Assembly (NCBI RefSeq): GCF_000297435.1
Contig: NZ_CAIP01000190.1
Coordinates: 1 to 20,038 of the forward strand
Origin: Microcystis sp. T1-4
GTDB lineage: Bacteria > Cyanobacteriota > Cyanobacteriia > Cyanobacteriales > Microcystaceae
Direction: 5' to 3'
Length of the DNA stretch: 20,038 bases
Shown: piece by piece, positions 1 to 20,038 of the stretch
Position numbering within the stretch: the stretch's first letter is position 1
Layout: every line of letters starts with the position of its first letter
Notes under the pieces: generated by a model
What the model was told of the DNA's origin: nothing
The model's database searches: none
The model's input: the letters and a program-made list of their open reading frames with translations, nothing else
Translations under genes and position numbers: made by a program

Positions 1-378
1 TGCCCCAGAAGGGGTAATTTCTAATGAGGGAGATTCCCTATCATCCATCGGGTTTATGATTTTGCTAATCGATTCTTCTGGATGGCGAATAGGTGTTTTT
101 TTGGCTATTTCTATATTTATTTCTGGTTGTAACTGTAGCATCTCTGTCCAGGCCTGATCAAACTTTTCTTTTTCTTTCGGGGATTTAACCCATAAAGCTT
201 GACAAAGAAGTTTAATTTTAGGATTGTCTAAGTTGGGATTTTCTTGAATAGCAATATCAGAATCATTGGCGAGTTTTTGAATTAGGTAATTTTCCACCCG
301 ATAATATTGTTCAATAGACAGCAGAAATCCTTCTTCGTCTCTGAGTTGATAAAATAGCTCAAGTAGGGGGGATGTCAT
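1..378 (-). CDS. CoxE-like vWA-family protein, N-terminal fragment (gene continues past window start)
   Basis: Absent from the ORF track because it has no stop in the window. Hand translation of the minus strand from ATG 378..376 gives MTSPLLELFYQLRDEEGFLLSIEQYYRVENYLIQKLANDSDIAIQENPNLDNPKIKLLCQALWVKSPKEKEKFDQAWTEMLQLQPEINIEIAKKTPIRHPEES..., open to base 1. It starts 8 nt after the MoxR stop. The patterns LF..LR..G..L..E.Y and L..ALWVKS.E....FDQAW resemble the N-terminal region of VWA_CoxE-type partners of MoxR/CoxD ATPases. The vWA domain itself would lie outside the window. Confidence 0.5.
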   Translation of the reverse strand, partial: MTSPLLELFYQLRDEEGFLLSIEQYYRVENYLIQKLANDSDIAIQENPNLDNPKIKLLCQALWVKSPKEKEKFDQAWTEMLQLQPEINIEIAKKTPIRHPEESISKIINPMDDRESPSLEITPSGA

Positions 379-386
379 TGGCTTTT

Positions 387-1358
387 TTAACCTCTTGTTC
401 CATAATCTTGTAAATCGGTACGGCTTTTTAGTAAAACACTAGCGTGGGGTAATTTGTCCTCGTTTAATTTGGCGATAATTTCTTCAGGTTTGTACTTGAG
501 CAACGATTTAAACCAGGCTATTAATTCACTGGTGCTAACTTTTTTTTCTCCTTCAGATTTAGTCTCGTCTTGTGATGTTCTCACTTCCAGAAAACGGTCC
601 ACTGCTTTGATGATAACCTCTTGTTCAGCGTCGGTAAACCGTTCGGTTAATATTTTTCTTAATCTTTCTTGGTTGGGTAGCTCAATATAGTGATAAATGC
701 AACGTCTCAGAAAAGCATTGGGTAAGTTTTTTTCTTGATTACTGGTAATTATAATCAGAGGAAAAGCTTGATCATTTGCTTGAATTAATTCTCCTGTTTC
801 TTTAATGAAAAAACGACGAGATTCAATGGCTAAAAGTAAATCATTAGGAAAATCTCGATCCGCTTTATCTATTTCATCAATTAATACTACCGATTGTTCT
901 TGCTTATCTTGACTTTGTTTAAATGCTTTACCCAAGGGTTGTAAATCAACCCAATCTTTTGAAGTAGCTGGATTTTTTTGCTCAGAAGAAGATTCTCCTG
1001 CTCCTTTTTGGCTTAAAATTCCGCTAATTTGAGCAGCTTGTAAACGGCCAATATAATCATATTGATAGAGACTATCTTCCGCTTTGCTTGTAGATTGAAC
1101 TATCCATTCATGATATTTTATAGAACCACTTTGCTGACCATTATTAAATTCATAAACTAAGGCATGAGCTAGACGACTTTTGCCACATCCCGGCTCACCT
1201 TCTAGTAACAAAGGCATTCCCAATTCAATAGCCAAGTTAACAACTTCTATTAACTCATCACCTGCGTCATAGGGATAAATTTTCTGTTGAATCGGTTCAT
1301 AATAAAGTCCCGATTTAGGTTGAATTTCTCCCGTGTAAGTTAAGGATAGTTTAGCCAT
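387..1358 (-). CDS. MoxR/CoxD-class AAA+ ATPase (AAA_5-like, single module)
   Basis: 323-aa ORF. Walker A is GEPGCGKSRLA, Walker B is VVLIDEIDKADRD, the sensor-1-like strand is LIIITSNQ, and there is an Arg-rich FLRRC. Size and layout are typical of MoxR-type chaperone ATPases. The ATG at 1358 overlaps the end of the upstream gene by 19 nt. Confidence 0.8.
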   Translation of the reverse strand: MAKLSLTYTGEIQPKSGLYYEPIQQKIYPYDAGDELIEVVNLAIELGMPLLLEGEPGCGKSRLAHALVYEFNNGQQSGSIKYHEWIVQSTSKAEDSLYQYDYIGRLQAAQISGILSQKGAGESSSEQKNPATSKDWVDLQPLGKAFKQSQDKQEQSVVLIDEIDKADRDFPNDLLLAIESRRFFIKETGELIQANDQAFPLIIITSNQEKNLPNAFLRRCIYHYIELPNQERLRKILTERFTDAEQEVIIKAVDRFLEVRTSQDETKSEGEKKVSTSELIAWFKSLLKYKPEEIIAKLNEDKLPHASVLLKSRTDLQDYGTRG

Positions 1359-2719
1359 TTATTTTCCCTCGATAATTGTCCTTGAAATTGTTGATAAAAA
1401 GCTTTCAGTGTGTCTTCTATGTTGCCTTCATTGCTATTTTTCCATAATTCCTGCAAGGTAGATTTAAATAAGTCTGTGGTTTCATCCTGTAAGTCACAAC
1501 CTAACTGAAGTTGTTGAGCAAAAGTAGGAATAATTTCCTGAAAAGACCGTTGTTCAAAGCAAGAGTCAATCTGTAAGCGGTGAATAGGAAATTCTGATAA
1601 TCTGTCGCTATCTCTCCAATCATTCCCTTCTCCATAATCTAACCAAATCATTAATAAAAAGCCCAGAATAGGACTATTTTGTATTTTACGAGCGTTGGTA
1701 ATTAAGTTTTGCCAAAACGAATCAATGTCTTTTAAACGGGAAAAGTCTGCACAATCAATTCCTTCAAAAATCAAACAAAAATTATTAGCTTTTAAATTTT
1801 TAATTCCTCCAGAATTATTGAAAAAATGTTCATGAAGACTATAGCTATCCCATTCTTCCTGACCATCTCCTTGAAATTTAAAAACAATAGGTTTAACGGG
1901 CAAATTATTAGTGATCAAGATTTCTTTTTCTAAACGACGCAAACACAAAACACGATATGTATGAGGACAAGGGGGAATATAAATACTGCCTTCTCGTAAA
2001 GTTTTAGCGGCTATTGAACTGGTAAAATTTACTAGATTAGTATAATTAAATTTTGTCAAAACACGATAAATTTTTTCATTATTTGTTTGTTGATTTTTTG
2101 GGTTTTGATGATGAAGTTGACAACATTGTAAGCTTTCAAAATCTAGGCCTAATACTTCGCAATAAGCTTGAACAATATAAGACTGTTTAGAGGTTCGCCC
2201 TTTTTTTCCTAGTCCATATTTTTGTTCAGTACAAAACCGCAAACTATCTCCAGATATGCCAATTACCTTTAAAATAGACGAATCTAATAAAAAATTCAGA
2301 ACCTCATCAAAGGTTAAATGAATTAAATTATCATTAATATCTTCAATTCTGGTTGTATTTATTTTATTTTGAGTAATGTACTCCCTTTTATTCTGATTTT
2401 CAAATCCTTTAAAATCAGATTTATTTTGTAAGTACAATTTCTTACCCTTTGGTTCTAAAACCTCTTTAGTTGCTCCAGATTGTGGCTGAGATTCTGTCAT
2501 CCAATCTTTCAAGACATTTAATCGAATGGTATAACTGGAAGTTTTTGTTTGACTACGGTATTCTTCGAGAAATGCCTCAAGTAACCATCGACTTGCTTCT
2601 ATTAATATTTTCTCTATTTTCTCCGAAGCACAAGAATAGTCTCCCTCATAAGCATCTTTAGCCTTACGAAGGGTTTCTACATCTTCATCCGATAATCTGA
2701 TTTCGCCGGACCTTAACAT
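1340..2719 (-). CDS. hypothetical protein, first gene of the MoxR cassette (no recognisable family; possible degenerate P-loop core)
   Basis: This is the ORF-track 463-aa frame, which starts at TTG 2731. The first ATG is at 2719 (MLRSGEIRLSDEDVETL...), giving 459 aa. The stop TAA at 1340-1342 lies inside the MoxR gene. It is a long uninterrupted ORF in a very AT-rich stretch, which argues for real coding. I can name no catalytic motif. Confidence 0.7.
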   Translation of the reverse strand: MLRSGEIRLSDEDVETLRKAKDAYEGDYSCASEKIEKILIEASRWLLEAFLEEYRSQTKTSSYTIRLNVLKDWMTESQPQSGATKEVLEPKGKKLYLQNKSDFKGFENQNKREYITQNKINTTRIEDINDNLIHLTFDEVLNFLLDSSILKVIGISGDSLRFCTEQKYGLGKKGRTSKQSYIVQAYCEVLGLDFESLQCCQLHHQNPKNQQTNNEKIYRVLTKFNYTNLVNFTSSIAAKTLREGSIYIPPCPHTYRVLCLRRLEKEILITNNLPVKPIVFKFQGDGQEEWDSYSLHEHFFNNSGGIKNLKANNFCLIFEGIDCADFSRLKDIDSFWQNLITNARKIQNSPILGFLLMIWLDYGEGNDWRDSDRLSEFPIHRLQIDSCFEQRSFQEIIPTFAQQLQLGCDLQDETTDLFKSTLQELWKNSNEGNIEDTLKAFYQQFQGQLSRENKWLNYP

Positions 2720-2845
2720 AAATCTCGTCAAACGTCAACCTACGATCTGATCCACTTTTTGATCCCCTTTTGCCAGCATTTGCTGAAAGCATTTTAATCA
2801 ACTTGTCCTCAAAAAACAAGCCCTAAGGCGACAGGAGCAAAATCT

Positions 2846-3013
2846 ATGAATTTTTGGCAAAAACATAAAGCGGACATTGACGTGATTTGCCGCATCATCA
2901 CCACTTTAACCGCCTTGGCTAGTTTGGGTGTTCAGGTGGGGGAGTTAAAGATTCCCGAAAGCAAGATTCTTCCCCCTATCCCTGAGGTTCAGGTGGAATT
3001 AAATATCAGATGA
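2846..3013 (+). CDS. hypothetical small protein (55 aa) with one hydrophobic segment
   Basis: Below the ORF-track size cutoff. AGGAG at 2833-2837 sits 8 nt before ATG 2846. Translation is MNFWQKHKADIDVICRIITTLTALASLGVQVGELKIPESKILPPIPEVQVELNIR, with TGA at 3011-3013. It is divergent from the MoxR cassette. It contains an internal ~22-bp direct repeat (GTTCAGGTGG..TTAAA at about 2931 and about 2987), so coding status is uncertain. Confidence 0.3.
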   Translation: MNFWQKHKADIDVICRIITTLTALASLGVQVGELKIPESKILPPIPEVQVELNIR

Positions 3014-3015
3014 AC

Positions 3016-3080
3016 GTAGGTTGGGTTGAAGCATGAAACCCAACTCCTGCATGGGTTACGCTACCGCTAACCCATCCTAC
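3016..3080. repeat. 65-nt palindromic element with two internal hairpins closed by GTAGG/CCTAC
   Basis: GTAGG (3016-3020) pairs with CCTAC (3076-3080). Hairpin 1 is GTTGGGTT (3020-3027) with AACCCAAC (3037-3044). Hairpin 2 is ATGGGTTA (3051-3058) with TAACCCAT (3068-3075). It begins 3 nt after the small-ORF stop. It resembles the small dispersed palindromic repeats common in cyanobacterial intergenic DNA. Confidence 0.6.
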
Positions 3081-3146
3081 AAATAATTTTGCCTCCCTAC
3101 TTAAGACGTATTTAAATCGCTTATTCTTAGATTAGCCGAATCTCCT

Positions 3147-3184
3147 CCCCCCTTGCCCCCCCGATGTCGGGGGGGTTGGGGGGG
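3147..3184. repeat. G/C-homopolymer palindrome (C6-TTG-C7-GATGTC-G7-TT-G7)
   Basis: C runs lie at 3147-3152 and 3156-3162, and G runs at 3169-3175 and 3178-3184. C7/G7 form a hairpin around GATGTC. The plus-strand G7-TT-G7 fits a G3N1G3N2G3N1G3 quadruplex pattern. Confidence 0.7.
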
Positions 3185-3249
3185 TTGCCTCTTGCCTCAT
3201 CTCAACAGGCAATTTAAATTACGAACAGCTTTTTTCATAAGACTGGACC

Positions 3250-3282
3250 AAAACGAGGGTGAGTTAATAAGATAACCCACCC
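3250..3282 (-). terminator. candidate intrinsic terminator of ndhH
   Basis: GGGTGAGTT (3257-3265) pairs with AACCCACCC (3274-3282) at 8 of 9 positions, with an 8-nt loop. On the minus strand the hairpin starts 10 nt after the ndhH stop and is followed by TCGTTTTGG (plus-strand AAAA at 3250-3253). Confidence 0.5.
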
Positions 3283-3292
3283 TGAAAGAGAT

Positions 3293-4477
3293 TTAGCGAT
3301 CGACTGACCCCATAATAATATCAATACTGCCTAAAATCGCCATAATATCGGCAACTTTTACCCCTTTGAGGATATGGGGCAGAATTTGAAGATTATTAAA
3401 ATCAGCGGCCCGAATTTTCCAACGCCAAGGGAAGAGTTCATCATTACCGACGATAAAGATACCTAATTCACCTTTACCGCTTTCCAAGCGCACATAATGT
3501 TCACCTTTAGGGATTTTGAAAGTGGGGGCGACTTTTTTGGCGATATATTGATAGTCAAAATCATTCCAAGCTGATTTTTTCCCTTCTGCCATCCGTTTTG
3601 CTTCCAGATTTTCGTAGGGACCACCGGGTAAACCTTTCAGTGCTTGCCGGATAATTTTCACCGATTCGCGCATTTCCCGAATCCGCACCAGATAACGAGC
3701 AAAACAATCGCCGGCGGTTTCCCAATGCACTTCCCAGTCAAAATCGTCGTAACACTCGTAATGGTCAACTTTTCTTAAATCCCATTTCACCCCGGAAGCG
3801 CGCAACATCGGACCAGATAAACCCCAGTTAATCGCTTCGTCTCTGGTAATGCAGCCTATCCCTTCAATACGACGGCGGAAAATCGGGTTATTAGTGATTA
3901 ATTTCTCGTATTCGTCCACTTTGGGGTCAAAATAGTCACAGAAATCCTCGCACTTATCCACCCATCCGTAGGGTAAATCCACCGCCACGCCACCAATACG
4001 GAAATAATTATTATTAATTAACCGCATTCCCGTGGCAGCTTCCCAGAGGTCATAAATCATCTCCCGTTCCCGGAAAATGTAGAAAAAGGGAGTTTGTGCG
4101 CCTACATCCGCCATAAAGGGGCCTAACCAGAGTAAATGGTTAGCGATGCGGTTGAGTTCCAACATAATCACCCGGATATATTGCGCTCGTTTGGGAACGG
4201 CGATATCGGCTAATTTTTCGGGAGCATTGACCGTAATCGCCTCGTTAAACATCCCTGCGGCGTAATCCCAACGACTAACGTAGGGAACGTACATGACATT
4301 GCTGCGATTTTCGGCAATTTTTTCCATGCCCCGATGAAGATAACCGATTACGGGTTCACAGTCAATCACGTCTTCCCCGTCAAGGGTGACGATTAAGCGC
4401 AAAACTCCGTGCATTGACGGGTGATGGGGTCCCATGTTTAAAACCATGGGTTCTGTTCTCGTTTCAATTTTTGCCAT
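3293..4477 (-). CDS. ndhH: NAD(P)H-quinone oxidoreductase (NDH-1) subunit H, NuoD/49-kDa family
   Basis: The sequence from [28 protein letters not shown]...GYLHRGMEK... to ...[13 protein letters not shown] reads as full-length NdhH (394 aa). I moved the start to ATG 4477. The 22 extra codons in the ORF track (MCIVEAF...) are not family-like and overlap a TATAAT box. Confidence 0.95.
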
Positions 4478-10458: not shown

Positions 10459-10869
10459 TTAATTACTTTCAGTAATTGCTTTGTGGTACAATTTTTGAAT
10501 TCCCGTCACTAATTTATCTAAAATAGATCGATGGCTATCGTGAGTCGGATCAAGACTCTGCACTTTGGTTAATAATTTCGCTTCCTGTATATCCACGTCG
10601 TCATCGCTATAGATTAAGGTGCTAATCGATGTTATTAGATCTTGATAGGTTTCTGGACTAGGATTATCGCCTAAATAGGACTCTAACCATCGATAACATT
10701 CACCAGTTTTAACTGGTTTTAGTTCGGATAATAGTGGTTTAATCTCCGGATCATCATCAAGTTTTTCCCTCACAGCTACCTGTCTTAAATAGCTTCTTTC
10801 TGATGGTTGAATTACACCATCAATCCAGGCAACACCGATGAGAATTTTCAGTAATTGTTTATTTTTCAT
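10459..10869 (-). CDS. TerB-like domain protein (tellurite-resistance TerB family fold), function unknown
   Basis: 136 aa. The N-terminal ...LLKILIGVAWIDGVIQPSERSYL... and the later acidic helical repeat ...LIYSDDDVDIQEAKLL... fit the two-repeat TerB-like pattern. The ATG lies 1 nt after the rsmB stop. Confidence 0.5.
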   Translation of the reverse strand: MKNKQLLKILIGVAWIDGVIQPSERSYLRQVAVREKLDDDPEIKPLLSELKPVKTGECYRWLESYLGDNPSPETYQDLITSISTLIYSDDDVDIQEAKLLTKVQSLDPTHDSHRSILDKLVTGIQKLYHKAITESN

Positions 10870-13219: not shown

Positions 13220-14755
13220 ATGAGCTACAATTATCGGTCAAACGTGGTTAATAGTGAGCAGATGCGTCGCATCGAAGGGGCGATTTTTGCCTCTGGTATG
13301 CCTGTGGCCGCTTTGATGGAAAAGGCAGCCCTGTTAACGGCACAACAGTTTAAAAAGTCCTATTCTTTGGCTAATTTCCCCAAAATCGGCGTTATAGTTG
13401 GCCCTGGTCACAATGGCGGCGATGCTCTCGTAATTGCTAGGGAATTACATCTCGCTGGTTATCAAGTATCTCTTTTTTGTCTGATCGCCAAACTCAAGGA
13501 TTTAACAGCACAACAGGCGAATTATGTCAAGCATTTAGGCTTAATTTTTCAGAAAACTTTAGAATCTTTGGAGGATTGTCAGTTAATTATCGATGGTCTT
13601 TTCGGTTTTGGTTTAGAAAGGACTTTATCGGGAGAGATTGCCGAATTAGTCGATAAAATTAATAGTTGGCAAAAACCGATAATTAGTATCGATATTGCTT
13701 CGGGAATTCACACCGACACCGGAGAGGTTTTAGGCACGGCAATTAAAGCCACTCATACCTTTTGTTTGGGACTCTGGAAGCGAGCTTTTTTCCAAGATTT
13801 GGCCTTACCCTATCTGGGTAAAGTGGAGTTAATTGATATAGGAATTAGTCCCCTTGACCTAGAAACAATTTTACAAGATTCACCGCCAATTCTGAGGGTT
13901 AATCCCGATCTAATTCGCCATTATTTACCCTTACCCCGTCCTCTCCTTACCCATAAATATCAGCAGGGACATTTATTAATTATCTGTGGTTCTCGTCGTT
14001 ATGCGGGGGGGGCAATTCTCGCCGGATTAGGAGCGCGAGGTAGTGGTGTGGGAATGCTTTCGATTGCCGTTCCTGCTGCCCTTAAATCTTTATTAATTAG
14101 TCATTTACCAGAAGCATTAATTATCGATTGTCCCGAAACTGCCACGGGAGCTATTGCCGAACTTCCCCTAGAATTAAATAATTATCATGTCCTCGCCTGT
14201 GGTCCTGGATTAACCACAGAAAATCCTGCTATTATCGAACAGGTTTTAGATAGTGATAAACCGATTATACTCGATGCCGATGCTTTAAATATTTTGGCTC
14301 AACTGGGTACAGAAAAATTATCATCTCGCCAAAATAAGACAATTTTAACGCCTCATTGGGGAGAATTTAAACGCTTATTTCCTAACTTATCAGGTTCTCA
14401 AGATAGGATTAATATCACTCAAGAAGCATCTCAACAAAGTGGTGCAATTGTCTTATTAAAAGGAGCCAGAACTATAATCGCCTCCCCGGAAGGTAAAATG
14501 TATATAATCCCCGAAAGTACCTCCGCTTTAGCGCGAGGTGGTAGTGGTGATGTCCTAACAGGATTAATCGGCGGATTCTTAACCCAAATGCAGGATAATC
14601 CCCCAGAAGCAACCGCATTAGCAGCTTATTTACACGCTCAAGCCGGCATTTTAGCGGCCAAAGAAAGGACAGAATTAGGAGTAGATGGAGTAACTTTAGC
14701 TAATTATTTATTTGCCGCCCTTAAAGATTCGATCCCCCCTGCCCCCCTTCGATAA
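13220..14755 (+). CDS. nnr: bifunctional NAD(P)H-hydrate repair enzyme (epimerase + ADP-dependent dehydratase)
   Basis: The YjeF-N signature is GPGHNGGDALV. The C-terminal carbohydrate-kinase-like part has GGSGDVLTG. I placed the start at the first ATG (MSYNYRSNVVNSEQMRRIE...); the ORF track starts at TTG 13151. The last ~8 codons and the stop lie in a G/C palindrome. Confidence 0.88.
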   Translation: MSYNYRSNVVNSEQMRRIEGAIFASGMPVAALMEKAALLTAQQFKKSYSLANFPKIGVIVGPGHNGGDALVIARELHLAGYQVSLFCLIAKLKDLTAQQANYVKHLGLIFQKTLESLEDCQLIIDGLFGFGLERTLSGEIAELVDKINSWQKPIISIDIASGIHTDTGEVLGTAIKATHTFCLGLWKRAFFQDLALPYLGKVELIDIGISPLDLETILQDSPPILRVNPDLIRHYLPLPRPLLTHKYQQGHLLIICGSRRYAGGAILAGLGARGSGVGMLSIAVPAALKSLLISHLPEALIIDCPETATGAIAELPLELNNYHVLACGPGLTTENPAIIEQVLDSDKPIILDADALNILAQLGTEKLSSRQNKTILTPHWGEFKRLFPNLSGSQDRINITQEASQQSGAIVLLKGARTIIASPEGKMYIIPESTSALARGGSGDVLTGLIGGFLTQMQDNPPEATALAAYLHAQAGILAAKERTELGVDGVTLANYLFAALKDSIPPAPLR

Positions 14756-14782
14756 GGGGGGTGGCCGATAGGCGGGGGGATC
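14731..14782. repeat. nested G/C-homopolymer palindrome spanning the nnr stop codon (possible terminator)
   Basis: The outer stem is GATCCCCCC (14731-14739) with GGGGGGATC (14774-14782). The inner stem is CCCCCCTT (14742-14749) with AAGGGGGG (14754-14761), with loop CGAT. The TAA stop is at 14753-14755. Confidence 0.7.
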
Positions 14783-14876
14783 AGAATTGATGATTTTTAC
14801 TGTATCTAACATTAAAATATCTTTCATAATACCCACCTAATAAACGCAATAAACGCAGAAATAAGTAGCGTTCTAT

Positions 14877-14921
14877 CTTTGTGTCCTTTGTGTCTCTGTG
14901 GTTCGTTCCATTCACTCGCCA
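14877..14921. repeat. dispersed 45-bp repeat, copy B (partner at 8611-8655)
   Basis: The sequence is CTTTGTGTCCTTTGTGTCTCTGTGGTTCGTTCCATTCACTCGCCA. It lies ~255 bp upstream of lysC. The surrounding ~105 bp is bracketed by the 13-bp direct repeat CATAATACCCACC (14825-14837 and 14943-14955). Confidence 0.8.
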
Positions 14922-15176
14922 GCAGGACTATATCTTAGAATACATAATACCCACCAAACCTAAGAGAGCCAAAATATTATTAATAGCATAAATGTACTGT
15001 ATTTAAACTGAGTAGGGGTATTTTAGTACAAATGCTCGGACTGCCTCCTTAAAGATTAATTCAGATAGTCGGCATTTGATAAAACATAAGGAATGTTAAC
15101 CAAAACCACTTATCGTTAAGGAATTTTGATAAGTTGGAGATTGAACAAAGATAGAAAGTCTCTAGCGCTGACAACT

Positions 15177-16982
15177 ATGGCTGTAATTGTCCAAAAATAC
15201 GGTGGTACATCGGTAGGTTCCGTGGAACGCATTCAATCGGTCGCTCAACGGGTCAAAAATACGGTAATAGCAGGAAATACCGTGGTGGTGGTCGTTTCTG
15301 CCATGGGTAAAACCACCGATGGATTGGTCAATTTAGCCAAACAAATCGCCGCCGAACCCTCGCGCCGGGAGATGGATATGTTATTATCCACGGGGGAACA
15401 GGTAACAATCGCCTTGATGAGTATGGCCCTAGAGGAAATCGGACAACCGGCCATCTCCCTAACCGGCGCTCAGGTGGGAATTGTCACGGAATCCGAACAT
15501 AGTCGGGCCCGTATTTTAGAAATTAAAACCGATCGCCTTTCCCGTCATCTATCGGAAGGTAAAGTAGTTGTGGTCGCCGGTTTTCAAGGTGTCAGCGATA
15601 GCGATCAACTAGAGATTACCACCCTAGGGCGCGGTGGGTCCGATACCTCGGCCGTAGCCCTAGCGGCCGCCTTAAAAGCCGATTTTTGCGAAATTTACAC
15701 CGATGTACCCGGTATTCTCACCACTGACCCCCGTTTAGTCCCCGAAGCGCGTCTTTTAGACCAAATTACCTGCGATGAGATGCTCGAATTAGCCAGTTTA
15801 GGGGCGAAAGTTCTCCACCCGCGAGCGGTGGAAATCGCTAAAAACTTCGGGGTTCCCTTGGTTGTCCGCTCCAGTTGGACAGAGGATCCGGGTACTTGGG
15901 TGACATCCCCAGCACCGAAACCGCGCACCCTGCAAGGATTGGAATTGACAAAAGCAGTGGATGCGGTGGAATTTGAGGGTAATCAGGCGAAAATCTCCCT
16001 TTTACGGGTTCCGGATCGTCCCGGTATCGCTGCCCGTTTATTCGGGGAAATCGCCCATCAACAGGTGGACGTGGATTTAATTATTCAATCGATTCACGAG
16101 GGGGACAGCAACGATATCGCCTTTACGGTGATGGGAAATGCCTTGAAAAAAGCCCAATCCGTGGCCGAAGCGATCGCACCGGTTTTACGTTCCCATCCCA
16201 CTAATACAGAGGAAGCGGAAGTGATTATCGAATCCGGGGCCGCTAAAATCGCCATTACCGGCGCTGGTATGATCGGCCGACCTGGAATTGCTGCCCAAAT
16301 ATTTAGCACTTTGGCCGCAGCAGCAATTAATATCGAAATGATCTCCACTTCTGAAGTAAAAGTCAGTTGCGTCATCGATGAAGCGGACGGAGAAAAAGCA
16401 ATTAAAGTCCTTTGTGATGCTTTTCAAGTGGAGTATTCTGCTAAAGTTGCTCATTGCGAAATCCCTAAAAATTTAGTCCCAGTACGGGGAGTGGCCCTAG
16501 ATAATAATCAGGCACAAATGGCCATTCGTAACGTCCCCGATCGCCCCGGGATGGCGGCGAGAATTTTCTCGGTTTTAGCGGCAAAAAATGTCAGTGTTGA
16601 TATGATTATTCAATCCCAACGCTGTCGCATTGTCGATGGTATTCCTCGACGGGATATCGCTTTTACTTTACCCCAAGCTGATGCTAATTTAGCCCAAAAA
16701 ATCCTTTTAGAACTATCGGAAAGTTTGGGTTTACAGGAAGTGGTGGTTAATAATGATGTGGCGAAAGTGAGCATTGTTGGTTCAGGAATGGAAGGACAAC
16801 CGGGGGTAGCAGCACGCTTTTTTGAAGCTTTAGCAAAGGAGAAAATTAATATTTTAATGATTGCTACTTCTGATATAAAAATCAGTTGTGTGGTGAATCA
16901 GGAAGATGGAGTCAGGGCCCTACAAGTGGTTCACGCCGCTTTTGGATTAGCCGGACAGGGTAAAATTGAAGTACCCGCCTAA
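15177..16982 (+). CDS. lysC: aspartate kinase with duplicated regulatory region (four ACT domains)
   Basis: 601 aa from ATG 15177 (MAVIVQKYGGTSVGS, the aspartokinase N-terminal signature). Two tandem ACT-ACT modules are visible as repeated patterns: ...LLRVPDRPGIAARLFGEIA... and ...IRNVPDRPGMAARIFSVLA..., then ...GAGMIGRPGIAAQIFSTLA... and ...GSGMEGQPGVAARFFEALA.... This matches the long cyanobacterial form. The ORF-track start at 15126 adds 17 non-family codons. Confidence 0.93.
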   Translation: MAVIVQKYGGTSVGSVERIQSVAQRVKNTVIAGNTVVVVVSAMGKTTDGLVNLAKQIAAEPSRREMDMLLSTGEQVTIALMSMALEEIGQPAISLTGAQVGIVTESEHSRARILEIKTDRLSRHLSEGKVVVVAGFQGVSDSDQLEITTLGRGGSDTSAVALAAALKADFCEIYTDVPGILTTDPRLVPEARLLDQITCDEMLELASLGAKVLHPRAVEIAKNFGVPLVVRSSWTEDPGTWVTSPAPKPRTLQGLELTKAVDAVEFEGNQAKISLLRVPDRPGIAARLFGEIAHQQVDVDLIIQSIHEGDSNDIAFTVMGNALKKAQSVAEAIAPVLRSHPTNTEEAEVIIESGAAKIAITGAGMIGRPGIAAQIFSTLAAAAINIEMISTSEVKVSCVIDEADGEKAIKVLCDAFQVEYSAKVAHCEIPKNLVPVRGVALDNNQAQMAIRNVPDRPGMAARIFSVLAAKNVSVDMIIQSQRCRIVDGIPRRDIAFTLPQADANLAQKILLELSESLGLQEVVVNNDVAKVSIVGSGMEGQPGVAARFFEALAKEKINILMIATSDIKISCVVNQEDGVRALQVVHAAFGLAGQGKIEVPA

Positions 16983-17004
16983 ATGAAATTACAAGTTCTA
17001 TGAT

Positions 17005-17044
17005 GGGGGTAAGAGTTGTTTAATTGTTGGCAACTTATACCCCC
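17005..17044 (+). terminator. stem-loop downstream of lysC (terminator candidate)
   Basis: GGGGGTAAGAGTTG (17005-17018) pairs with CAACTTATACCCCC (17031-17044) at 12 of 14 positions, with a 12-nt loop, 22 nt after the lysC stop. It is followed by an A-run rather than a T-run. It overlaps the TTG start proposed by the ORF track for the next gene. Confidence 0.35.
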
Positions 17045-17089
17045 AAAAACCCGATAAATAAGTTAACCCTCATCACCCCGATTTTATCT

Positions 17090-17506
17090 ATGGACCCTCT
17101 TACAGGAGCAGCGATCGCAGTTGGTTCGATTATTGCCACTAAAGCGTTAGAGAAAACTGGTGAAAAAGTGGGAGAGAAAGTTTGGCAACAAACAGAAAAA
17201 TTTCTCACTTCCCTGAAACAAGTTTCTCCAGATACTGTCACCGCAATTGAAAAAGCACCCGAACAGCCTTTAGATTATGGACAGGCAATTCTAGAGGTGG
17301 AATCTGTTGCTAAAACCAGTCCCGAATTAAGCCAAATTATAACCGAGTTGGTTAAAGCGATAGAAGCGGAACCTTCCCTTAAAGAATTGGTTAATAATAC
17401 CCTTAAATCTCAATCTCAACAAGCCAGCTTTATCAATAATCAAAAATTACCTGATTCCATAAAGAATCTTTTTCAAGGTAATACATTCATTGGCAATACT
17501 TTCTGA
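17090..17506 (+). CDS. small helical N-terminal domain ORF (138 aa), in frame with the downstream NB-ARC-TPR gene and ended by TGA
   Basis: I chose the ATG at 17090 (MDPLTGAAIAVGSIIATKALEKTGEKVGEKVWQQ...). It lies after the lysC hairpin and is the first ATG. The frame is the same as 17660..20038. The protein ends ...NLFQGNTFIGNTF, then TGA. Confidence 0.6.
   Translation: MDPLTGAAIAVGSIIATKALEKTGEKVGEKVWQQTEKFLTSLKQVSPDTVTAIEKAPEQPLDYGQAILEVESVAKTSPELSQIITELVKAIEAEPSLKELVNNTLKSQSQQASFINNQKLPDSIKNLFQGNTFIGNTF
17504..17506 (+). other. in-frame TGA separating the N-terminal domain from the NB-ARC domain
   Basis: Both 17024/17090 and 17660 are in the same reading frame. The 51 codons at 17507-17659 are open and encode the conserved pre-P-loop segment ...NIPRFVGRDQELIDLKKQL.... 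Confidence 0.9.
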
Positions 17507-17659
17507 CTGCAGCCGCCTGTTAAGGAACAGGTTAAACAACATCCTCACAATTTATCTAATAGTAATATCCCTAGATTTGTTGGTAGGGATCAGGAATTAA
17601 TTGACTTAAAAAAGCAATTACAACAATCCCAAAAGCTTGCTATATCTACCTTAACGGGA

Positions 17660-20038
17660 ATGGGAGGCATAGGTAAAACCGAACTAGCCAGACAGTTTGG
17701 CTGGCAACAATGGCGGGAAAAAGCCTATCCCGGGGGTATATGTTGGTTAAATGTGGCAGAAAGTGACGGCGGTTTTATCGGTACTTCTATTTTAGATTTT
17801 GCGCGGGTACATCTCAAATTAACTTTACCGGATGAGGGAGAATTAGACGTAAAAATTCGTTATTGTTGGCAAAACTGGTTAGCGGGAAATGTCCTAATTA
17901 TCTTTGATGATGTGCGGGATTATCAGCAAATTAGGGATTATTTACCACCGCAAGAAGACAAACGCTTTCAGGTTTTAATTACCACTCGCAAGGAATATTT
18001 ATCAGCGACAATTGCGACTTTTCGGGTAGAAGTATTAAAAGAAAAAGATGCACTTGATTTATTGCGTTCCTACCTTGTAGATAACAGAATTGACACACAA
18101 ATCGAGGCAGCTAAATTATTATGTCAGGATTTGGGTTATTTACCCTTGGCGTTAGAATTGGTGGCAAGGTTGCTGGTACGACGACAGGATTGGGAAATCA
18201 GCAAAATACGGCAGAAATTAGCCGAAAAAGGCTTAGATGAGCCAATCTTAGCCAAAAATCCCAAGTTTCATGGGGAAATGACTGCGGAAAGAGGGTTAAA
18301 AGCTGCCTTTAATCTCAGTTGGGAGGAGTTGCACAGCGAACCAGAAGCGCAAATTTTGGCACTTTACCTCAGTTTATTCGCTCTTGCGCCCTTTCCCAAG
18401 GGGATGATTCTGGATTTATTTCCCGATGAGGATGGGGATACAGTGGAGGAATGGTTAAGCGATAGTTTAGTTCACCTGAGTTTAGTTCAGGATAATCGTG
18501 ATGGTTGGTATGAAATTCATCCCCTGTTGCGTCGCTATTTTCGGGATAAGTTAGAAGCATCACCCCACGCAGAACCAGCAAAACGCCGTTATTGTGGGAT
18601 TATGGCCAAAAAATCGGCAGAAATGCCACAGAATCCCACTGTAGAAATCGTTGAAGAATTTAAACCTTTCCTTCTCCATCTACAAGCATCTGTCGGGGAA
18701 TATCCCCAATATATCGCTGATGAGGATTTATTATGGTCCTATACGGGTTTAGCTTGGTATTATAACGGACAAGGATTGTATGCTATTGCTGAACCTTACT
18801 ATCAAGATTGTTTAACCGCAACTCGAACCCACTTAGGAGACAATCATCCCCATGTGGCAACTTCCCTCAACAATTTAGCACTATTGTACGAATCCCAAGG
18901 CAGGTACACAGAAGCGGAACCTCTCCTTCTAGAAGCTTTAGATTTGAGAAAACGACTCTTAGGAGACAATCATCCCGATGTGGCAACTTCCCTCAACAGT
19001 TTAGCAGCATTGTACAAATCCCAAGGCAGGTACACAGAAGCGGAACCTCTCTATCTAGAAGCATTAGATTTGTATAAACGACTCTTAGGAGACAATCATC
19101 CCCATGTGGCACTTTCCCTCAACAATTTAGCACTATTGTACTATTCTCAAGGCAGGTACACAGAAGCAGAACCTCTCTTTCTAGAAGCATTAGATTTGTA
19201 TAAACGACTCTTAGGAGACAATCATCCCCATGTGGCACTTTCCCTCAACAATTTAGCAGGATTGTACGATTCCCAAGGCAGGTACACAGAAGCAGAACCT
19301 CTCCTTCTAGAAGCATTAGATTTGTATAAACGACTCTTAGGAGACAATCATCCCCATGTGGCAACTTCCCTCAACAATTTAGCAGCATTGTACGATTCTC
19401 AAGGCAGGTACACAGAAGCAGAACCTCTCTTTCTAGAAGCATTAGATTTGTATAAACGACTCTTAGGAGACAATCATCCCCATGTGGCACTTTCCCTCAA
19501 CAATTTAGCAGGATTGTACGATTCCCAAGGCAGGTACACAGAAGCAGAACCTCTCTATCTAGAAGCATTAGATTTGAGAAAACGACTCTTAGGAGACAAT
19601 CATCCCGATGTGGCAACTTCCCTCAACAATTTAGCAAACTTGTACGAATCCCAAGGCAGGTACACAGAAGCGGAACCTCTCCATCTAGAAGCATTAGATT
19701 TGAGAAAACAACTCTTAGGAGACAATCATCCCGATGTGGCACAATCCCTCAACAATTTAGCAGGATTGTACGATTCCCAAGGCAGGTACACAGAAGCGGA
19801 ACCTCTCTATCTAGAAGCATTAGATTTGACAAAACGACTCTTAGGAGACAATCATCCCGATGTGGCACAATCCCTCAACAATTTAGCACTATTGTACAAA
19901 TCCCAAGGCAGGTACACAGAAGCGGAACCTCTTTATTCTGAAGCATTACAAATTTGTGAACAATCATTAGGAATAGCGCATCCAACAACAATGACGGTTC
20001 GAGGAAATTATGCTATCTGCCTTCGTCGTGGGAGATAG
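17660..20038 (+). CDS. STAND NTPase, NB-ARC domain plus TPR repeat sensor (NLR/Avs-like); coding-like sequence extends 5' to 17507
   Basis: Walker A is GMGGIGKTELA, and the ORF-track Met lies inside the P-loop. Walker B is VLIIFDDVRD, the sensor-1/RNBS-B-like motif is QVLITTRKE, and the GLPLA-type motif is LGYLPLALELVARLL. These are followed by a helical linker and TPR_10/12-type 42-aa repeats. The TAG stop lies at the last 3 bases of the window. Confidence 0.85.
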   Translation: MGGIGKTELARQFGWQQWREKAYPGGICWLNVAESDGGFIGTSILDFARVHLKLTLPDEGELDVKIRYCWQNWLAGNVLIIFDDVRDYQQIRDYLPPQEDKRFQVLITTRKEYLSATIATFRVEVLKEKDALDLLRSYLVDNRIDTQIEAAKLLCQDLGYLPLALELVARLLVRRQDWEISKIRQKLAEKGLDEPILAKNPKFHGEMTAERGLKAAFNLSWEELHSEPEAQILALYLSLFALAPFPKGMILDLFPDEDGDTVEEWLSDSLVHLSLVQDNRDGWYEIHPLLRRYFRDKLEASPHAEPAKRRYCGIMAKKSAEMPQNPTVEIVEEFKPFLLHLQASVGEYPQYIADEDLLWSYTGLAWYYNGQGLYAIAEPYYQDCLTATRTHLGDNHPHVATSLNNLALLYESQGRYTEAEPLLLEALDLRKRLLGDNHPDVATSLNSLAALYKSQGRYTEAEPLYLEALDLYKRLLGDNHPHVALSLNNLALLYYSQGRYTEAEPLFLEALDLYKRLLGDNHPHVALSLNNLAGLYDSQGRYTEAEPLLLEALDLYKRLLGDNHPHVATSLNNLAALYDSQGRYTEAEPLFLEALDLYKRLLGDNHPHVALSLNNLAGLYDSQGRYTEAEPLYLEALDLRKRLLGDNHPDVATSLNNLANLYESQGRYTEAEPLHLEALDLRKQLLGDNHPDVAQSLNNLAGLYDSQGRYTEAEPLYLEALDLTKRLLGDNHPDVAQSLNNLALLYKSQGRYTEAEPLYSEALQICEQSLGIAHPTTMTVRGNYAICLRRGR
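18833..19966 (+). repeat. nine tandem 126-bp units encoding 42-aa TPR repeats (LGDNHP.VA.SLNNLA.LY.SQGRYTEAEPL.LEALDL.KRL)
   Basis: Units start at 18833, 18959, 19085, 19211, 19337, 19463, 19589, 19715 and 19841, an exact 126-bp period. Units 1-8 differ at only a handful of nucleotides. Unit 9 diverges in its last ~35 nt. A degenerate capping half-unit follows at 19967-20035. Confidence 0.95.

What the first reader, a model, noticed from the sequence alone, without database searches (positions are those of the whole stretch)
1..2731. AT-rich three-gene cassette (orphan 459-aa protein, MoxR-class AAA+ ATPase, CoxE-like vWA protein): candidate vWA-MoxR-type conflict/defence system
Three minus-strand genes are packed for co-translation. 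The orphan gene ends 19 nt inside the MoxR gene (1340-1358), and the third gene starts 8 nt after the MoxR stop. MoxR + vWA pairs are a known ATP-driven remodelling module (CoxD/CoxE, NorQ/NorD, CbbQ/CbbO). Comparative-genomic work has also described vWA-MoxR-centred multi-gene systems, enriched in cyanobacteria, that are predicted to act in biological conflict. Here the pair is not next to any enzyme it could mature: the neighbours are a tiny ORF and ndhH on the opposite strand. It is led by a large protein with no motif I recognise. The cassette is compositionally foreign to the adjacent core genes. The window cuts the system, so effector genes may lie beyond base 1.
Basis: partly seen in the sequence, partly recalled or inferred. 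Interest (0 to 1): 0.8.

Follow-up and report, generated by a model that had tools for sequence, protein, structure and literature searches.

The report
iSTAND–MoxR–vWA immune-like system, DGR-diversified
The cassette is a Microcystis copy of a predicted but never tested bacterial "immune-like" three-protein system (inactive STAND protein, MoxR ATPase, vWA protein). Its vWA protein ends in a lectin-fold binding domain that a reverse-transcriptase mutator encoded elsewhere in the genome rewrites from strain to strain.

Summary
Three tightly packed minus-strand genes, at 32-37% GC in a 44.5% GC window, encode a 459-aa protein, a MoxR-class AAA+ ATPase and the start of a CoxE-type vWA protein.

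The "orphan" is not an orphan. It is a very divergent inactive-STAND (iSTAND) protein. Its family profile reaches proteins that pass Pfam's iSTAND model. Its AlphaFold model matches ORC/Cdc6/RFC AAA+ folds. It has no Walker A motif.

The window cuts the third gene. In relatives it is a 906-aa protein with a CoxE-type N-domain, a vWA domain carrying a DxSxS MIDAS motif, a helical linker and an FGE-sulfatase/C-type-lectin (FGS) domain.

Its last ~40 codons are a variable region of a diversity-generating retroelement (DGR). Against a Microcystis template repeat, the cassette's variable regions differ at 50% of template adenines and at 2.3% of other bases.

The closest non-Microcystis relatives carry Avd, reverse transcriptase and the template repeat directly after the same triad.

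So this is an iSTAND-type MoxR-vWA ternary conflict system (Kaur et al. 2020) with a DGR-diversified sensor (the concept of Doré et al. 2024). It sits at a fixed place beside ndhH in every Microcystis genome examined.

I rate it a new member of a known, computationally predicted kind. The defence function is inferred, not shown.

The parts
1340..2719 (-). iSTAND component (459 aa from the ATG at 2719; the ORF extends to a TTG at 2731). Residues ~1-220 are an uncharacterised, fast-evolving N-terminal region. Residues ~221-362 are the inactive STAND/AAA+-like core. Residues 363-459 are a helical C-terminal part.
   Evidence: A profile of 15 Microcystis sequences, searched against 1.84 billion representatives, finds only 19 proteins. 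The non-Microcystis ones, P0341, P0342, P0344, P0346 and P0348, match Pfam PF19995 iSTAND at 24.0-59.9 bits (cutoff 24). The syntenic Crocosphaera gene scores 35 bits for iSTAND and aligns to residues 128-446 at E 4e-12. An AF2 model (pLDDT 81.8) gives Foldseek hits to ORC/Cdc6, RFC and other AAA+ proteins (best E 1.2e-5). There is no Walker A: the loop between beta1 and helix 1 reads PPCPHTYR. D322 is invariant.
1634..2056 (-). Approximate extent of the inactive STAND NTPase-like core (residues ~222-362) within the iSTAND gene.
   Evidence: The extent was placed by aligning the orphan with L006:5624-6889, whose Pfam iSTAND match covers residues 207-343. The AF2 model shows a beta-alpha-beta core over E242-248, H253-270, E275-281, H292-303, E313-319, H326-344 and E354-360.
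1340..1358 (-). 19-nt overlap between the end of the iSTAND gene and the start of the MoxR gene, consistent with translational coupling.
   Evidence: ORF coordinates. The same overlap appears in the called genes of L001, L004 and L055-L060.
387..1358 (-). MoxR-class AAA+ ATPase (323 aa). Walker A is G54-EPGCGK60-S61. Walker B is VVLID161E162. Sensor-1 is N207. The arginine pair is R218/R219. There is no Trp-rich VMAP-type N-terminal extension.
   Evidence: Pfam AAA_5 at 45 bits, above the cutoff of 22. NCBIfam MadB_ATPase at 79 bits, far below its cutoff of 475. Homologues 95-98% identical are named MoxR family ATPase in several Microcystis records. The motifs were read from the translation.
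1..378 (-). First 126 codons of the vWA-FGS gene: the CoxE-type N-terminal helical domain and the start of the linker. The gene is cut by the window edge. The full protein is 894-944 aa in relatives.
   Evidence: Reading frame. This fragment is 97-98% identical to the N-terminus of L001:10981-13701 and L004. The full-length orthologue has a MIDAS motif D218-C-S-D-S222, the SDAG and WLNPLP motifs, Pfam VWA_CoxE (21 bits; homologues score 27-44 bits against a cutoff of 26.4) and FGE-sulfatase at E 4e-50. N-domain residues L12, G17, Y25, W63 and K65 are invariant across the family.
2720..3292 (-). Intergenic region upstream of the cassette, the presumed promoter region. It holds a terminator-like hairpin (3283-3256, minus strand) just after the ndhH stop and a conserved 55-aa ORF on the opposite strand (2846-3013).
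   Evidence: Terminator-like site. The small ORF is present in every Microcystis locus but has no clear relative outside the genus. No promoter was demonstrated: promoter-like hits are at the chance level.

Best explanation
The cassette is an iSTAND-type MoxR-vWA ternary conflict system. One subunit is a hypermutated receptor.

**Shown here**
- The three genes encode an inactive STAND protein, an intact MoxR AAA+ ATPase and a CoxE-type vWA protein.
- They keep a fixed order and are packed for co-translation.
- The vWA protein ends in an FGS/C-type-lectin-fold domain.
- The last ~40 codons of that domain are a variable region copied, with adenine-specific errors, from a template repeat of a diversity-generating retroelement encoded elsewhere in Microcystis genomes.

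**Inferred from Kaur et al. 2020 and Doré et al. 2024, and from known MoxR/vWA pairs**
- The three proteins form one complex.
- The variable lectin-fold domain binds a molecule of an invader, such as a cyanophage protein or glycan.
- The vWA MIDAS site holds a peptide of a partner protein.
- The MoxR hexamer uses ATP to remodel the complex once ligand is bound. This acts as a threshold.
- The fast-evolving iSTAND protein either co-senses (nucleic acid has been proposed) or passes the signal on through its uncharacterised N-terminal 220 residues.

No enzymatic effector is recognisable in the triad. The output is therefore unknown. It may be dominant-negative sequestration of the ligand, or recruitment of effectors encoded elsewhere.
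For: **iSTAND identity.** The family profile reaches proteins that pass the Pfam iSTAND model. The syntenic Crocosphaera gene aligns to the orphan at E 4e-12. The AF2 model has pLDDT 81.8 and AAA+/ORC-like Foldseek hits. Walker A is absent.

**MoxR.** AAA_5 above cutoff, with intact Walker A and B motifs.

**vWA-FGS.** MIDAS DxSxS, VWA_CoxE in homologues and FGE-sulfatase at E 4e-50.

**Gene order and coupling** are conserved in 8 Microcystis loci and in Crocosphaera, Pannus and a metagenome contig.

**DGR targeting**
- The C-terminal codons are hypervariable among about 80 Microcystis orthologues at fixed positions, while their first 650 residues are mostly 95-98% identical to the L001 orthologue (range 90-100%).
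- The template repeat was found next to Avd and RT in M. aeruginosa S464.
- Template-versus-variable mismatches are 735/1422 at A against 82/3976 at C, G and T over 46 variable regions. For the cassette's own variable regions they are 78/155 against 10/435.
- The nearest relatives, L008 and L006, have Avd, RT and the template repeat directly after the triad.

**Fast evolution.** iSTAND dN/dS is about 1.0, against 0.38 for MoxR and 0.04 for ndhH. The literature describes iSTAND as rapidly evolving.

**Paralogous systems** share the same template repeat in one genome: a VMAP-type ternary system and STAND-FGS targets. This matches Kaur et al. 2020 and 2021.
Against: - No experiment exists for any iSTAND ternary system. 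Complex formation, ligand sensing and anti-phage activity are all inference.
- PADLOC models give no system-level hit.
- No effector, EAD, TIR or peptidase domain is detectable on the iSTAND N-terminus. Most described systems have one.
- The cassette is a fixed, apparently universal Microcystis locus rather than a variable defence island.
- In two complete genomes, the fetched loci around variable-region copies hold only remnants of the RT. Ongoing diversification is therefore not assured in every strain. Whether the strain of this window has an RT or a template repeat is unknown.
- A dN/dS of about 1 in the iSTAND gene could also mean relaxed constraint.
Confidence: 0.8

Rival explanations
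1. The pair is a MoxR/vWA maturation chaperone of the CoxD/CoxE, NorQ/NorD or CbbQ/CbbO type. It serves a specific enzyme complex. Given the conserved adjacency and shared strand with ndhH, the client would be NDH-1.
For: The vWA protein is CoxE-type. ndhH is the immediate upstream gene on the same strand in every Microcystis locus examined, even where the other flank of ndhH differs, as in L059.
Against: A terminator-like hairpin and an opposite-strand ORF separate ndhH from the cassette. Orthologous triads in Crocosphaera lie among mobile-element-like genes, in Pannus among chemotaxis genes, and in L008 next to ParA. None is near ndhH or any shared enzyme. The vWA protein carries a DGR-hypermutated binding domain, which makes no sense for a fixed client. 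ndhH is under strong purifying selection (dN/dS 0.04) while the cassette is not.
Confidence: 0.04
2. The cassette is a decaying, functionless remnant of a once DGR-linked system. It would be kept only by linkage, with the iSTAND gene drifting neutrally and the variable-region diversity being historical.
For: iSTAND dN/dS is about 1.0 overall. The cassette has low GC. The RT is reduced to fragments or split in several Microcystis genomes. No DGR lies next to the cassette in Microcystis.
Against: All three ORFs are intact in more than 100 distinct sequences, and all indels are in frame. The iSTAND core has dN/dS 0.43, MoxR 0.38 and the vWA protein 0.30. The catalytic motifs of MoxR and the MIDAS motif are intact. 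The 19-nt overlap and the 8-nt spacer are conserved. At least one strain has a complete Avd-RT-template set matching the variable region.
Confidence: 0.08
3. The third protein is an enzyme, as annotated ('SUMF1/EgtB/PvdO family nonheme iron enzyme'). MoxR/vWA would insert or exchange its metal, with the iSTAND protein as an adaptor.
For: Public annotations and a strong Pfam FGE-sulfatase match. MoxR/vWA pairs are known metal-insertion machines (NorQD; PMC13036017 and PMC9976466, listed).
Against: The C-terminal part of the FGS domain is hypervariable at fixed codons and tracks the template adenines, as in the binding sites of DGR variable proteins. The same variable-region scaffold is fused to CHAT-NACHT, NACHT-GUN4 and VMAP-system proteins in the same genomes. 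That pattern fits a portable binding module, not an enzyme. I did not check the catalytic residues of FGE or EgtB.
Confidence: 0.03

Closest known systems
iSTAND-type MoxR-vWA ternary conflict systems (Kaur, Burroughs, Iyer, Aravind 2020, eLife, PMC7159879)
   Same: The three components match: an inactive STAND protein, a MoxR without the VMAP-type extensions, and a vWA protein with a CoxE-type N-terminal helical domain and a variable C-terminal domain. FGS is the commonest such domain. The systems are concentrated in cyanobacteria and other colonial or multicellular bacteria. The gene order matches the strict order the paper states for VMAP systems, third component then MoxR then vWA.
   Different: This iSTAND is too divergent for the Pfam iSTAND model (no hit at E<=1). 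Its family is tiny: 19 representatives among 1.84 billion. Its N-terminal 220 residues show none of the TIR, peptidase, EAD or Death-like domains described. The locus is fixed beside ndhH across a whole genus.
DGR-linked VMAP ternary systems and other DGR-diversified 'antigen sensors' (Kaur 2020; Doré et al. 2024 PNAS, PMC10907252)
   Same: A vWA protein is fused to a C-type-lectin/FGS domain whose variable region is rewritten by a DGR. The template repeat lies either nearby or elsewhere in the genome. A MoxR ATPase sits immediately upstream.
   Different: The third component is iSTAND, not VMAP. There is no VMAP-C match here, whereas the Microcystis paralogue in L020 has one. In the parts of these papers I searched, DGR linkage is quantified only for VMAP systems. 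'iSTAND' and 'Microcystis' do not occur in the main text of Doré et al..
CoxD/CoxE, NorQ/NorD, CbbQ/CbbO, RavA/ViaA (MoxR + vWA maturation chaperones)
   Same: An AAA+ MoxR hexamer is paired with a MIDAS-bearing vWA partner. The vWA domain and its N-terminal helical domain are of the CoxE type.
   Different: There is no conserved client enzyme in the neighbourhood. A third obligatory iSTAND partner is present. The vWA protein is extended by about 550 residues ending in a hypermutated binding domain.
Bordetella phage BPP-1 Mtd and Treponema TvpA (classical DGR variable proteins)
   Same: The variable region lies at the C-terminal end of a C-type-lectin/FGE-sulfatase fold. Differences from the template are adenine-specific. 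Avd and RT are the accessory genes (background).
   Different: This target is cytoplasmic, multi-domain and remote from its DGR. It is one of at least 10-14 targets that share one variable-region/template scaffold per genome.
BrxB/BrxF iSTAND modules of BREX (bioRxiv 10.1101/2025.10.09.681413)
   Same: [quoted passage not shown]
   Different: The system context differs (BREX versus MoxR-vWA). I did not test for direct sequence similarity.

Membership tests
iSTAND-type MoxR-vWA ternary system (Kaur et al. 2020) | The third component contains an inactive STAND NTPase domain. | tested here: met
   The direct Pfam scan is negative. The family profile finds P0341, P0342, P0344, P0346 and P0348 at E 5e-24 to 2e-10, and these match Pfam iSTAND at 24.0-59.9 bits (cutoff 24). 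The syntenic L006 protein scores 35 bits for iSTAND and aligns to the orphan at E 4e-12. AF2 and Foldseek give ORC/Cdc6/RFC AAA+ hits. No GxxxxGK[ST] is present.
iSTAND-type MoxR-vWA ternary system (Kaur et al. 2020) | A MoxR-class AAA+ ATPase with intact ATPase motifs and without the VMAP-type N-terminal WxhapG / PsWRxa motifs. | tested here: met
   AAA_5 at 45 bits. Walker A GEPGCGKS, Walker B VVLIDE and the RR pair were read from the translation. There is no Trp in the first 50 residues. Clade assignment within MoxR by phylogeny was not done.
iSTAND-type MoxR-vWA ternary system (Kaur et al. 2020) | A vWA component with a CoxE-type N-terminal helical domain and a vWA domain. | tested here: met
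   The window holds only the N-domain (1-378). Full-length orthologues 97-98% identical over that part have MIDAS DCSDS, SDAG, WLNPLP and VWA_CoxE at 21 bits. Homologues P0329, P0334, P0337 and P0338 pass the cutoff.
iSTAND-type MoxR-vWA ternary system (Kaur et al. 2020) | The three genes are adjacent in the order third component, MoxR, vWA. | tested here: met
   Window. Eight Microcystis loci and L006, L007 and L008.
iSTAND-type MoxR-vWA ternary system (Kaur et al. 2020) | A variable C-terminal effector or sensor domain on the vWA protein, FGS being the commonest. | tested here: met
   FGE-sulfatase at E 4e-50 over residues 656-899 of the L001 orthologue. This lies beyond base 1 of the window.
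iSTAND-type MoxR-vWA ternary system (Kaur et al. 2020) | An N-terminal signalling, effector or adaptor domain (TIR, peptidase, EAD, Death-like) on the iSTAND protein. | tested here: not met
   No Pfam, NCBIfam, PADLOC or PHROG hit on residues 1-220. The profile search against PDB sequences gives nothing significant. This feature is frequent in the family but is not stated to be universal.
iSTAND-type MoxR-vWA ternary system (Kaur et al. 2020) | Acts against invasive elements. | not testable with these tools
   It needs phage or plasmid challenge experiments. I found no experimental study of such a system.
Target (variable protein) of a diversity-generating retroelement | A variable region at the C-terminal end of a C-type-lectin/FGS fold that varies between close relatives. 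| tested here: met
   About 80 Microcystis orthologues vary at fixed codons in the pattern LRGGSW..P..CRSA.R....RR.......GFRVVCGAGRTL. Their first 650 residues are mostly 95-98% identical to the L001 orthologue, range 90-100%. dN/dS in the variable region is 2.0.
Target (variable protein) of a diversity-generating retroelement | A cognate template repeat that differs from the variable region almost only at template adenines. | tested here: met
   The template repeat is in L030 and L046. Cassette variable regions mismatch it at 78/155 A positions against 10/435 non-A positions. All 46 variable regions mismatch at 735/1422 against 82/3976. The template comes from other strains than the window's.
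Target (variable protein) of a diversity-generating retroelement | A DGR reverse transcriptase and an Avd accessory gene in the same genome. | tested here: inconclusive
   Avd (72 bits) and RT (76 bits) are intact next to the template repeat in M. aeruginosa S464 (L030). The RT is split in M015S2. In the loci fetched from two complete genomes, only RT fragments lie near variable-region copies. None is present in this window. The rest of this strain's genome cannot be seen.
VMAP-type MoxR-vWA ternary system | The third component carries a VMAP-C domain. | tested here: not met
   There is no VMAP-C hit on the 459-aa protein at E<=1. A paralogous Microcystis system (L020) does hit VMAP-C at 58 bits.
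CoxD/CoxE-, NorQ/NorD-, CbbQ/CbbO-type maturation chaperones | Conserved genomic linkage to the client enzyme. | tested here: not met
   The ndhH linkage exists only in Microcystis. The Crocosphaera, Pannus and L008 triads have unrelated neighbours.
Catalogued anti-phage defence systems (PADLOC-DB v2) | The proteins match models of a known or candidate defence system. | tested here: not met
   Only weak generic AAA+ hits for MoxR (mad8 8e-7, TRIP13, IetA). There is nothing significant for the other two proteins.

The most novel reading that the evidence does not exclude
Colonial Microcystis may run a genome-wide repertoire of at least 10-14 intracellular receptors that share one hypermutable lectin-fold scaffold and one DGR template. 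The receptors are wired to different signalling chassis: iSTAND-MoxR-vWA, VMAP-MoxR-vWA, CHAT-NACHT and NACHT-GUN4.

This cassette would be the one arm fixed in every strain. Its output would be a previously undescribed domain, the fast-evolving N-terminal 220 residues of the iSTAND protein. That domain could be a new effector or a DNA-binding output module.

If so, this would be a tractable, universally present entry point for testing whether DGR-diversified receptors give bacteria an anticipatory, antibody-like immunity.
Probability: 0.25. Interest if true: 0.75.

Novelty: new member of a known kind. Interest (0 to 1): 0.45.

Why it matters
Microcystis is the main toxic bloom-forming cyanobacterium, and how it resists cyanophages shapes bloom dynamics. 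MoxR-vWA ternary systems and DGR-diversified "antigen sensors" have so far been inferred only by comparative genomics.

This locus offers a compact three-gene example. It is present at a fixed site in every Microcystis genome examined, and its receptor domain has a clear DGR signature. That makes the proposed sensor, MoxR threshold and output logic testable through knockouts, Walker A and MIDAS mutants, swaps of the variable region and ligand fishing.

The case also shows that a protein that looks like a genus-restricted orphan can be placed by an exhaustive profile search combined with a structure model built on a deeper alignment.

Tried and rejected
- **Exact look-up of the window's MoxR protein** found nothing. 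I used near-identical homologues instead.
- **Direct Pfam, NCBIfam, PADLOC and PHROG scans of the 459-aa protein** gave nothing significant. Imm30 (0.064) and HerA (0.016) were dismissed as noise.
- **The first AF2 model**, built from Microcystis sequences only, was unusable (pLDDT 48.9).
- **PDB sequence searches.** MoxR gave only weak Vps4 matches. The vWA N-terminal 650 aa gave nothing. The iSTAND profile gave nothing below E 0.3.
- **An XRE-type helix-turn-helix in iSTAND residues ~154-197.** The only trace is 3tyr at E 1.1. This is not supported and is kept as a hunch.
- **The NCBIfam 'MadB family AAA ATPase' hit** scores 79 bits against a cutoff of 475, so it does not show membership. 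Two literature searches for MadB were uninformative.
- **The 55-aa divergent ORF** has no relative outside the genus.
- **The promoter scan** was at the chance level.
- **A template repeat, RT or Avd inside the window.** None was found.
- **The supplement of Kaur et al. that is held** lists only multicellularity flags, not the systems. I could not check whether this Microcystis locus is in their tables.

Full report
**1. Observation**

The window's first 2.7 kb carries three minus-strand reading frames, as described.
- An ORF at 1340..2731 gives 463 aa from a TTG. The ATG at 2719 gives the 459 aa that gene callers use in relatives.
- An ORF at 387..1358 gives 323 aa. It overlaps the first by 19 nt.
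- Eight bases after its TAA, an ATG at 378 opens a frame that runs off base 1. This is 126 codons.

GC content is 0.32-0.37 in the three genes. It is 0.46 in ndhH and 0.445 in the rest of the window.

One detail was wrong. ndhH (3293..4477) lies on the same strand as the cassette. A terminator-like hairpin (3283-3256) and a conserved 55-aa ORF on the opposite strand (2846..3013) separate the two.

**2. Organism and locus**

The MoxR protein is 95-98% identical to proteins from many Microcystis assemblies, so the window is from a Microcystis strain.

Loci from other strains show the same arrangement:
- upstream: rsmB, TerB-like, pgm, putA, ndhH and the small ORF;
- the 449-459 aa protein, the 323 aa AAA+ protein and an 894-915 aa FGE-sulfatase protein;
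- downstream, where the contig reaches that far: small genes including DUF2283 and a DUF6036 nucleotidyltransferase, then a 7TMR-HD protein.

Looking up the window's exact NdhH sequence returned six informative contigs. All carry the cassette beside ndhH, even where the other flank of ndhH is different, as in L059. The cassette is therefore a fixed chromosomal locus in this genus, not a variable island.

**3. The middle gene**

It matches Pfam AAA_5 above the cutoff. It has a canonical Walker A (GEPGCGKS), a Walker B (VVLIDE), a sensor-1 Asn and an RR pair. It lacks the Trp-rich N-terminal motifs that Kaur et al. give for the MoxR of VMAP systems. The best NCBIfam hit, MadB_ATPase, is far below its cutoff (79 bits against 475) and says nothing about membership.

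**4. The third gene**

In relatives it encodes about 906 aa, with these features:
- A helical N-domain. This is the part inside the window. L12, G17, Y25, W63 and K65 are invariant across the family.
- A linker.
- A vWA domain with the MIDAS motif D218-C-S-D-S222 and the SDAG and WLNPLP motifs.
- A roughly 270-residue helical region.
- An FGE-sulfatase (FGS, C-type-lectin fold) domain at E 4e-50.

Pfam VWA_CoxE is just below its cutoff in the Microcystis protein (21.3 bits against 26.4). It is above the cutoff in the homologues P0329, P0334, P0337 and P0338.

**5. The 'orphan'**

A word-based search found only Microcystis sequences at 81-93% identity.

An exhaustive profile search of 1.84 billion cluster representatives found just 19 proteins. 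The non-Microcystis members P0341, P0342, P0344, P0346 and P0348 match Pfam PF19995 'inactive STAND' at or above its cutoff of 24 bits (24.0-59.9 bits).

In Crocosphaera chwakensis the gene in the same position, upstream of a 70%-identical MoxR and a 56%-identical vWA-FGS protein, scores 35 bits for iSTAND. It aligns to residues 128-446 of the Microcystis protein at E 4e-12.

With the deeper alignment the AlphaFold model reached pLDDT 81.8. Foldseek against the PDB returned ORC/Cdc6, RFC, Rif2 and other AAA+ proteins (best E 1.2e-5).

The loop where a P-loop would sit reads PPCPHTYR. The only family-wide invariant residues are R262 and D322, which lies at the Walker-B position.

The protein is therefore a divergent iSTAND component. 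Its first ~220 residues match nothing.

**6. Classification**

The features found are an iSTAND protein, a MoxR without extensions, and a CoxE-type vWA protein with a C-terminal FGS domain, in that order. This is the 'iSTAND ternary system' of Kaur et al. 2020. They report it as concentrated in cyanobacteria, with FGS as the commonest vWA-fused domain. VMAP membership is excluded: there is no VMAP-C match here, whereas a paralogous Microcystis system in L020 has one. PADLOC has no model for the system.

**7. The link to a diversity-generating retroelement**

In the two closest non-Microcystis relatives the triad is followed directly by bAvd, a reverse transcriptase and a second small FGS protein. 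A ~100-180-nt repeat occurs three times in both loci. In L008 the copies lie at the 3' end of the vWA-FGS gene, just after the RT, and at the 3' end of the small FGS gene. The RT-proximal copy there is AAC-rich.

In Microcystis the C-terminal ~40 residues of the vWA-FGS protein differ between strains at fixed codons. The pattern is LRGGSW..P..CRSA.R....RR.......GFRVVCGAGRTL. The first 650 residues of these orthologues are mostly 95-98% identical to the L001 protein, with a range of 90-100%.

A scan of one genome per species with the conserved 3' end of this variable region gave 45 loci, nearly all from Microcystis. One complete genome has 14 copies and another has 10.

Two of the copies are AAC-rich template repeats. 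One of them (L030, M. aeruginosa S464) lies next to an intact bAvd and RT and a CHAT-NACHT-FGS target.

| Comparison with the template repeat | Mismatches at template A | Mismatches at C, G, T |
|---|---|---|
| 46 distinct variable regions | 735/1422 | 82/3976 |
| Five variable regions of this cassette | 78/155 | 10/435 |

These counts are the hallmark of mutagenic retrohoming.

The Microcystis RT is 72% identical to the RTs that sit beside the orthologous triads in L006 and L008. The cassette's vWA-FGS protein is thus a remote DGR target.

The DGR itself is patchy. The RT is split in M015S2. In the loci fetched from two complete genomes, only RT fragments lie near variable-region copies. No RT, Avd or template repeat lies in this window.

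**8. Evolutionary rates**

These are pairwise NG86 estimates over 9 strains (6 for vWA). They are crude and the pairs are not independent.

| Gene or region | dN/dS |
|---|---|
| ndhH | 0.04 |
| MoxR | 0.38 |
| vWA without the variable region | 0.30 |
| iSTAND, whole gene | 1.0 |
| iSTAND core domain | 0.43 |
| iSTAND residues 1-120 | 1.7 |
| iSTAND residues 121-220 | 1.1 |
| iSTAND C-terminal helical part (dS only 0.009) | 4.9 |

The body of the FGS domain has dS 0.65, which suggests exchange between the many paralogous FGS genes. Rapid evolution of iSTAND modules is also noted in the literature.

**9. Mechanism**

Shown here: the domain make-up, the gene order and coupling, the DGR targeting, and conservation across the genus.

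Inferred from Kaur et al. 2020 and 2021, Doré et al. 2024 and known MoxR/vWA pairs:
- The three proteins form a complex.
- The hypervariable lectin-fold domain binds an invader molecule.
- The vWA MIDAS site and the MoxR hexamer convert binding into an ATP-dependent remodelling step.
- The iSTAND protein co-senses or transmits the signal.

No effector domain is recognisable, so the output is open.

**10. Rivals**

A maturation chaperone for NDH-1 is unlikely. The ndhH linkage is specific to Microcystis, a terminator-like hairpin intervenes, and a hypermutated binding domain does not fit a fixed client.

A decaying remnant is unlikely. All ORFs and motifs are intact in more than 100 sequences, and the core domains are under purifying selection.

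An enzymatic role for the FGS domain is unlikely given the behaviour of the variable region. I did not check the catalytic residues.

**11. Novelty**

The class is already described computationally, including the association of FGS with DGRs and template repeats encoded elsewhere in the genome. Doré et al. also propose that the vWA-lectin protein is the sensor.

In the searchable library I found no paper that describes the DGR of Microcystis or this locus. I also found no experimental work on any iSTAND ternary system.

I therefore rate the cassette a new member of a known kind. Four points are of moderate interest:
- a very divergent iSTAND with an unknown N-terminal domain;
- a fixed position across the genus;
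- one DGR template shared by at least 10-14 receptor genes per genome;
- uneven retention of the RT.

Noticed in passing
window 17660-20038 (+): An NB-ARC plus TPR-repeat STAND NTPase gene, cut by the window end. It is another conflict- or signalling-type protein in the same window.
   Followed up: no
window 2846-3013 (+): A 55-aa ORF with one hydrophobic stretch. It is conserved in every Microcystis locus between ndhH and the cassette and is divergent to the cassette. It has no convincing relative in the Crocosphaera or Pannus loci.
   Followed up: partly
window 3256-3283 (-): A terminator-like hairpin (11 pairs) starts 10 nt after the ndhH stop. This argues that the cassette is transcribed separately from ndhH, even though both are on the same strand.
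   Followed up: no
L010-L054 (Microcystis genomes), e.g. L017-L053 from M. ichthyoblabe FBCC-A1114: The 23-nt 3' end of the variable region occurs 14 times in one complete Microcystis genome and 10 times in another. These are many FGS-domain genes sharing one variable-region/template scaffold. They include CHAT-NACHT-FGS (L030), NACHT-GUN4-FGS (L046) and a VMAP-C/MoxR/FGS ternary system (L020).
   Followed up: partly
L011:2245-2529, L017:2568-2780, L046:5649-6846: The DGR reverse transcriptase is reduced to C-terminal fragments in the loci fetched from two complete Microcystis genomes. It is split into two ORFs in M015S2 and intact in S464 (L030). Retention of the mutator is uneven among strains.
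   Followed up: partly
L001:12931-13560 (FGS domain body of the vWA protein) and orthologues: Synonymous divergence between strains is about 0.65 in the FGS domain body, against about 0.04 in the rest of the gene. This suggests recombination or gene conversion among the paralogous FGS genes.
   Followed up: no
L016, L029, L043 variable regions compared with the L046 template repeat: Some cassette variable regions are 3, 6 or 9 nt longer than the template repeat found. Either template variants of other lengths exist, or indels arise during or after retrohoming.
   Followed up: no
L006:1-5500 and 14496-18110 (Crocosphaera chwakensis): There the orthologous triad and its DGR lie among mobile-element-like genes: a DUF3854/D5_N primase, a LexA-like S24 peptidase and a Herpes_ori_bp helicase. 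This hints that the module travels on mobile DNA outside Microcystis.
   Followed up: no
L001:14063-15233 and 17913-20428 (downstream of the cassette in relatives, beyond window base 1): Small genes (DUF2283, a DUF6036 nucleotidyltransferase) and several DUF29 and Uma2-family genes follow the cassette. They look like a toxin-antitoxin-like or mobile-element-associated cluster.
   Followed up: no
L033 (Nostoc sp. CHAB 5836), L037 (Scytonema sp. PCC 10023): The same 23-nt variable-region/template 3' end occurs in filamentous cyanobacteria. L033 has a MoxR (39% identical), a variable region, Avd, an RT (71% identical) and a template repeat in one 8-kb stretch.
   Followed up: no
window 10459-10869 (-): A 136-aa TerB-like protein lies between pgm and rsmB. 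It is conserved in all Microcystis loci seen.
   Followed up: no
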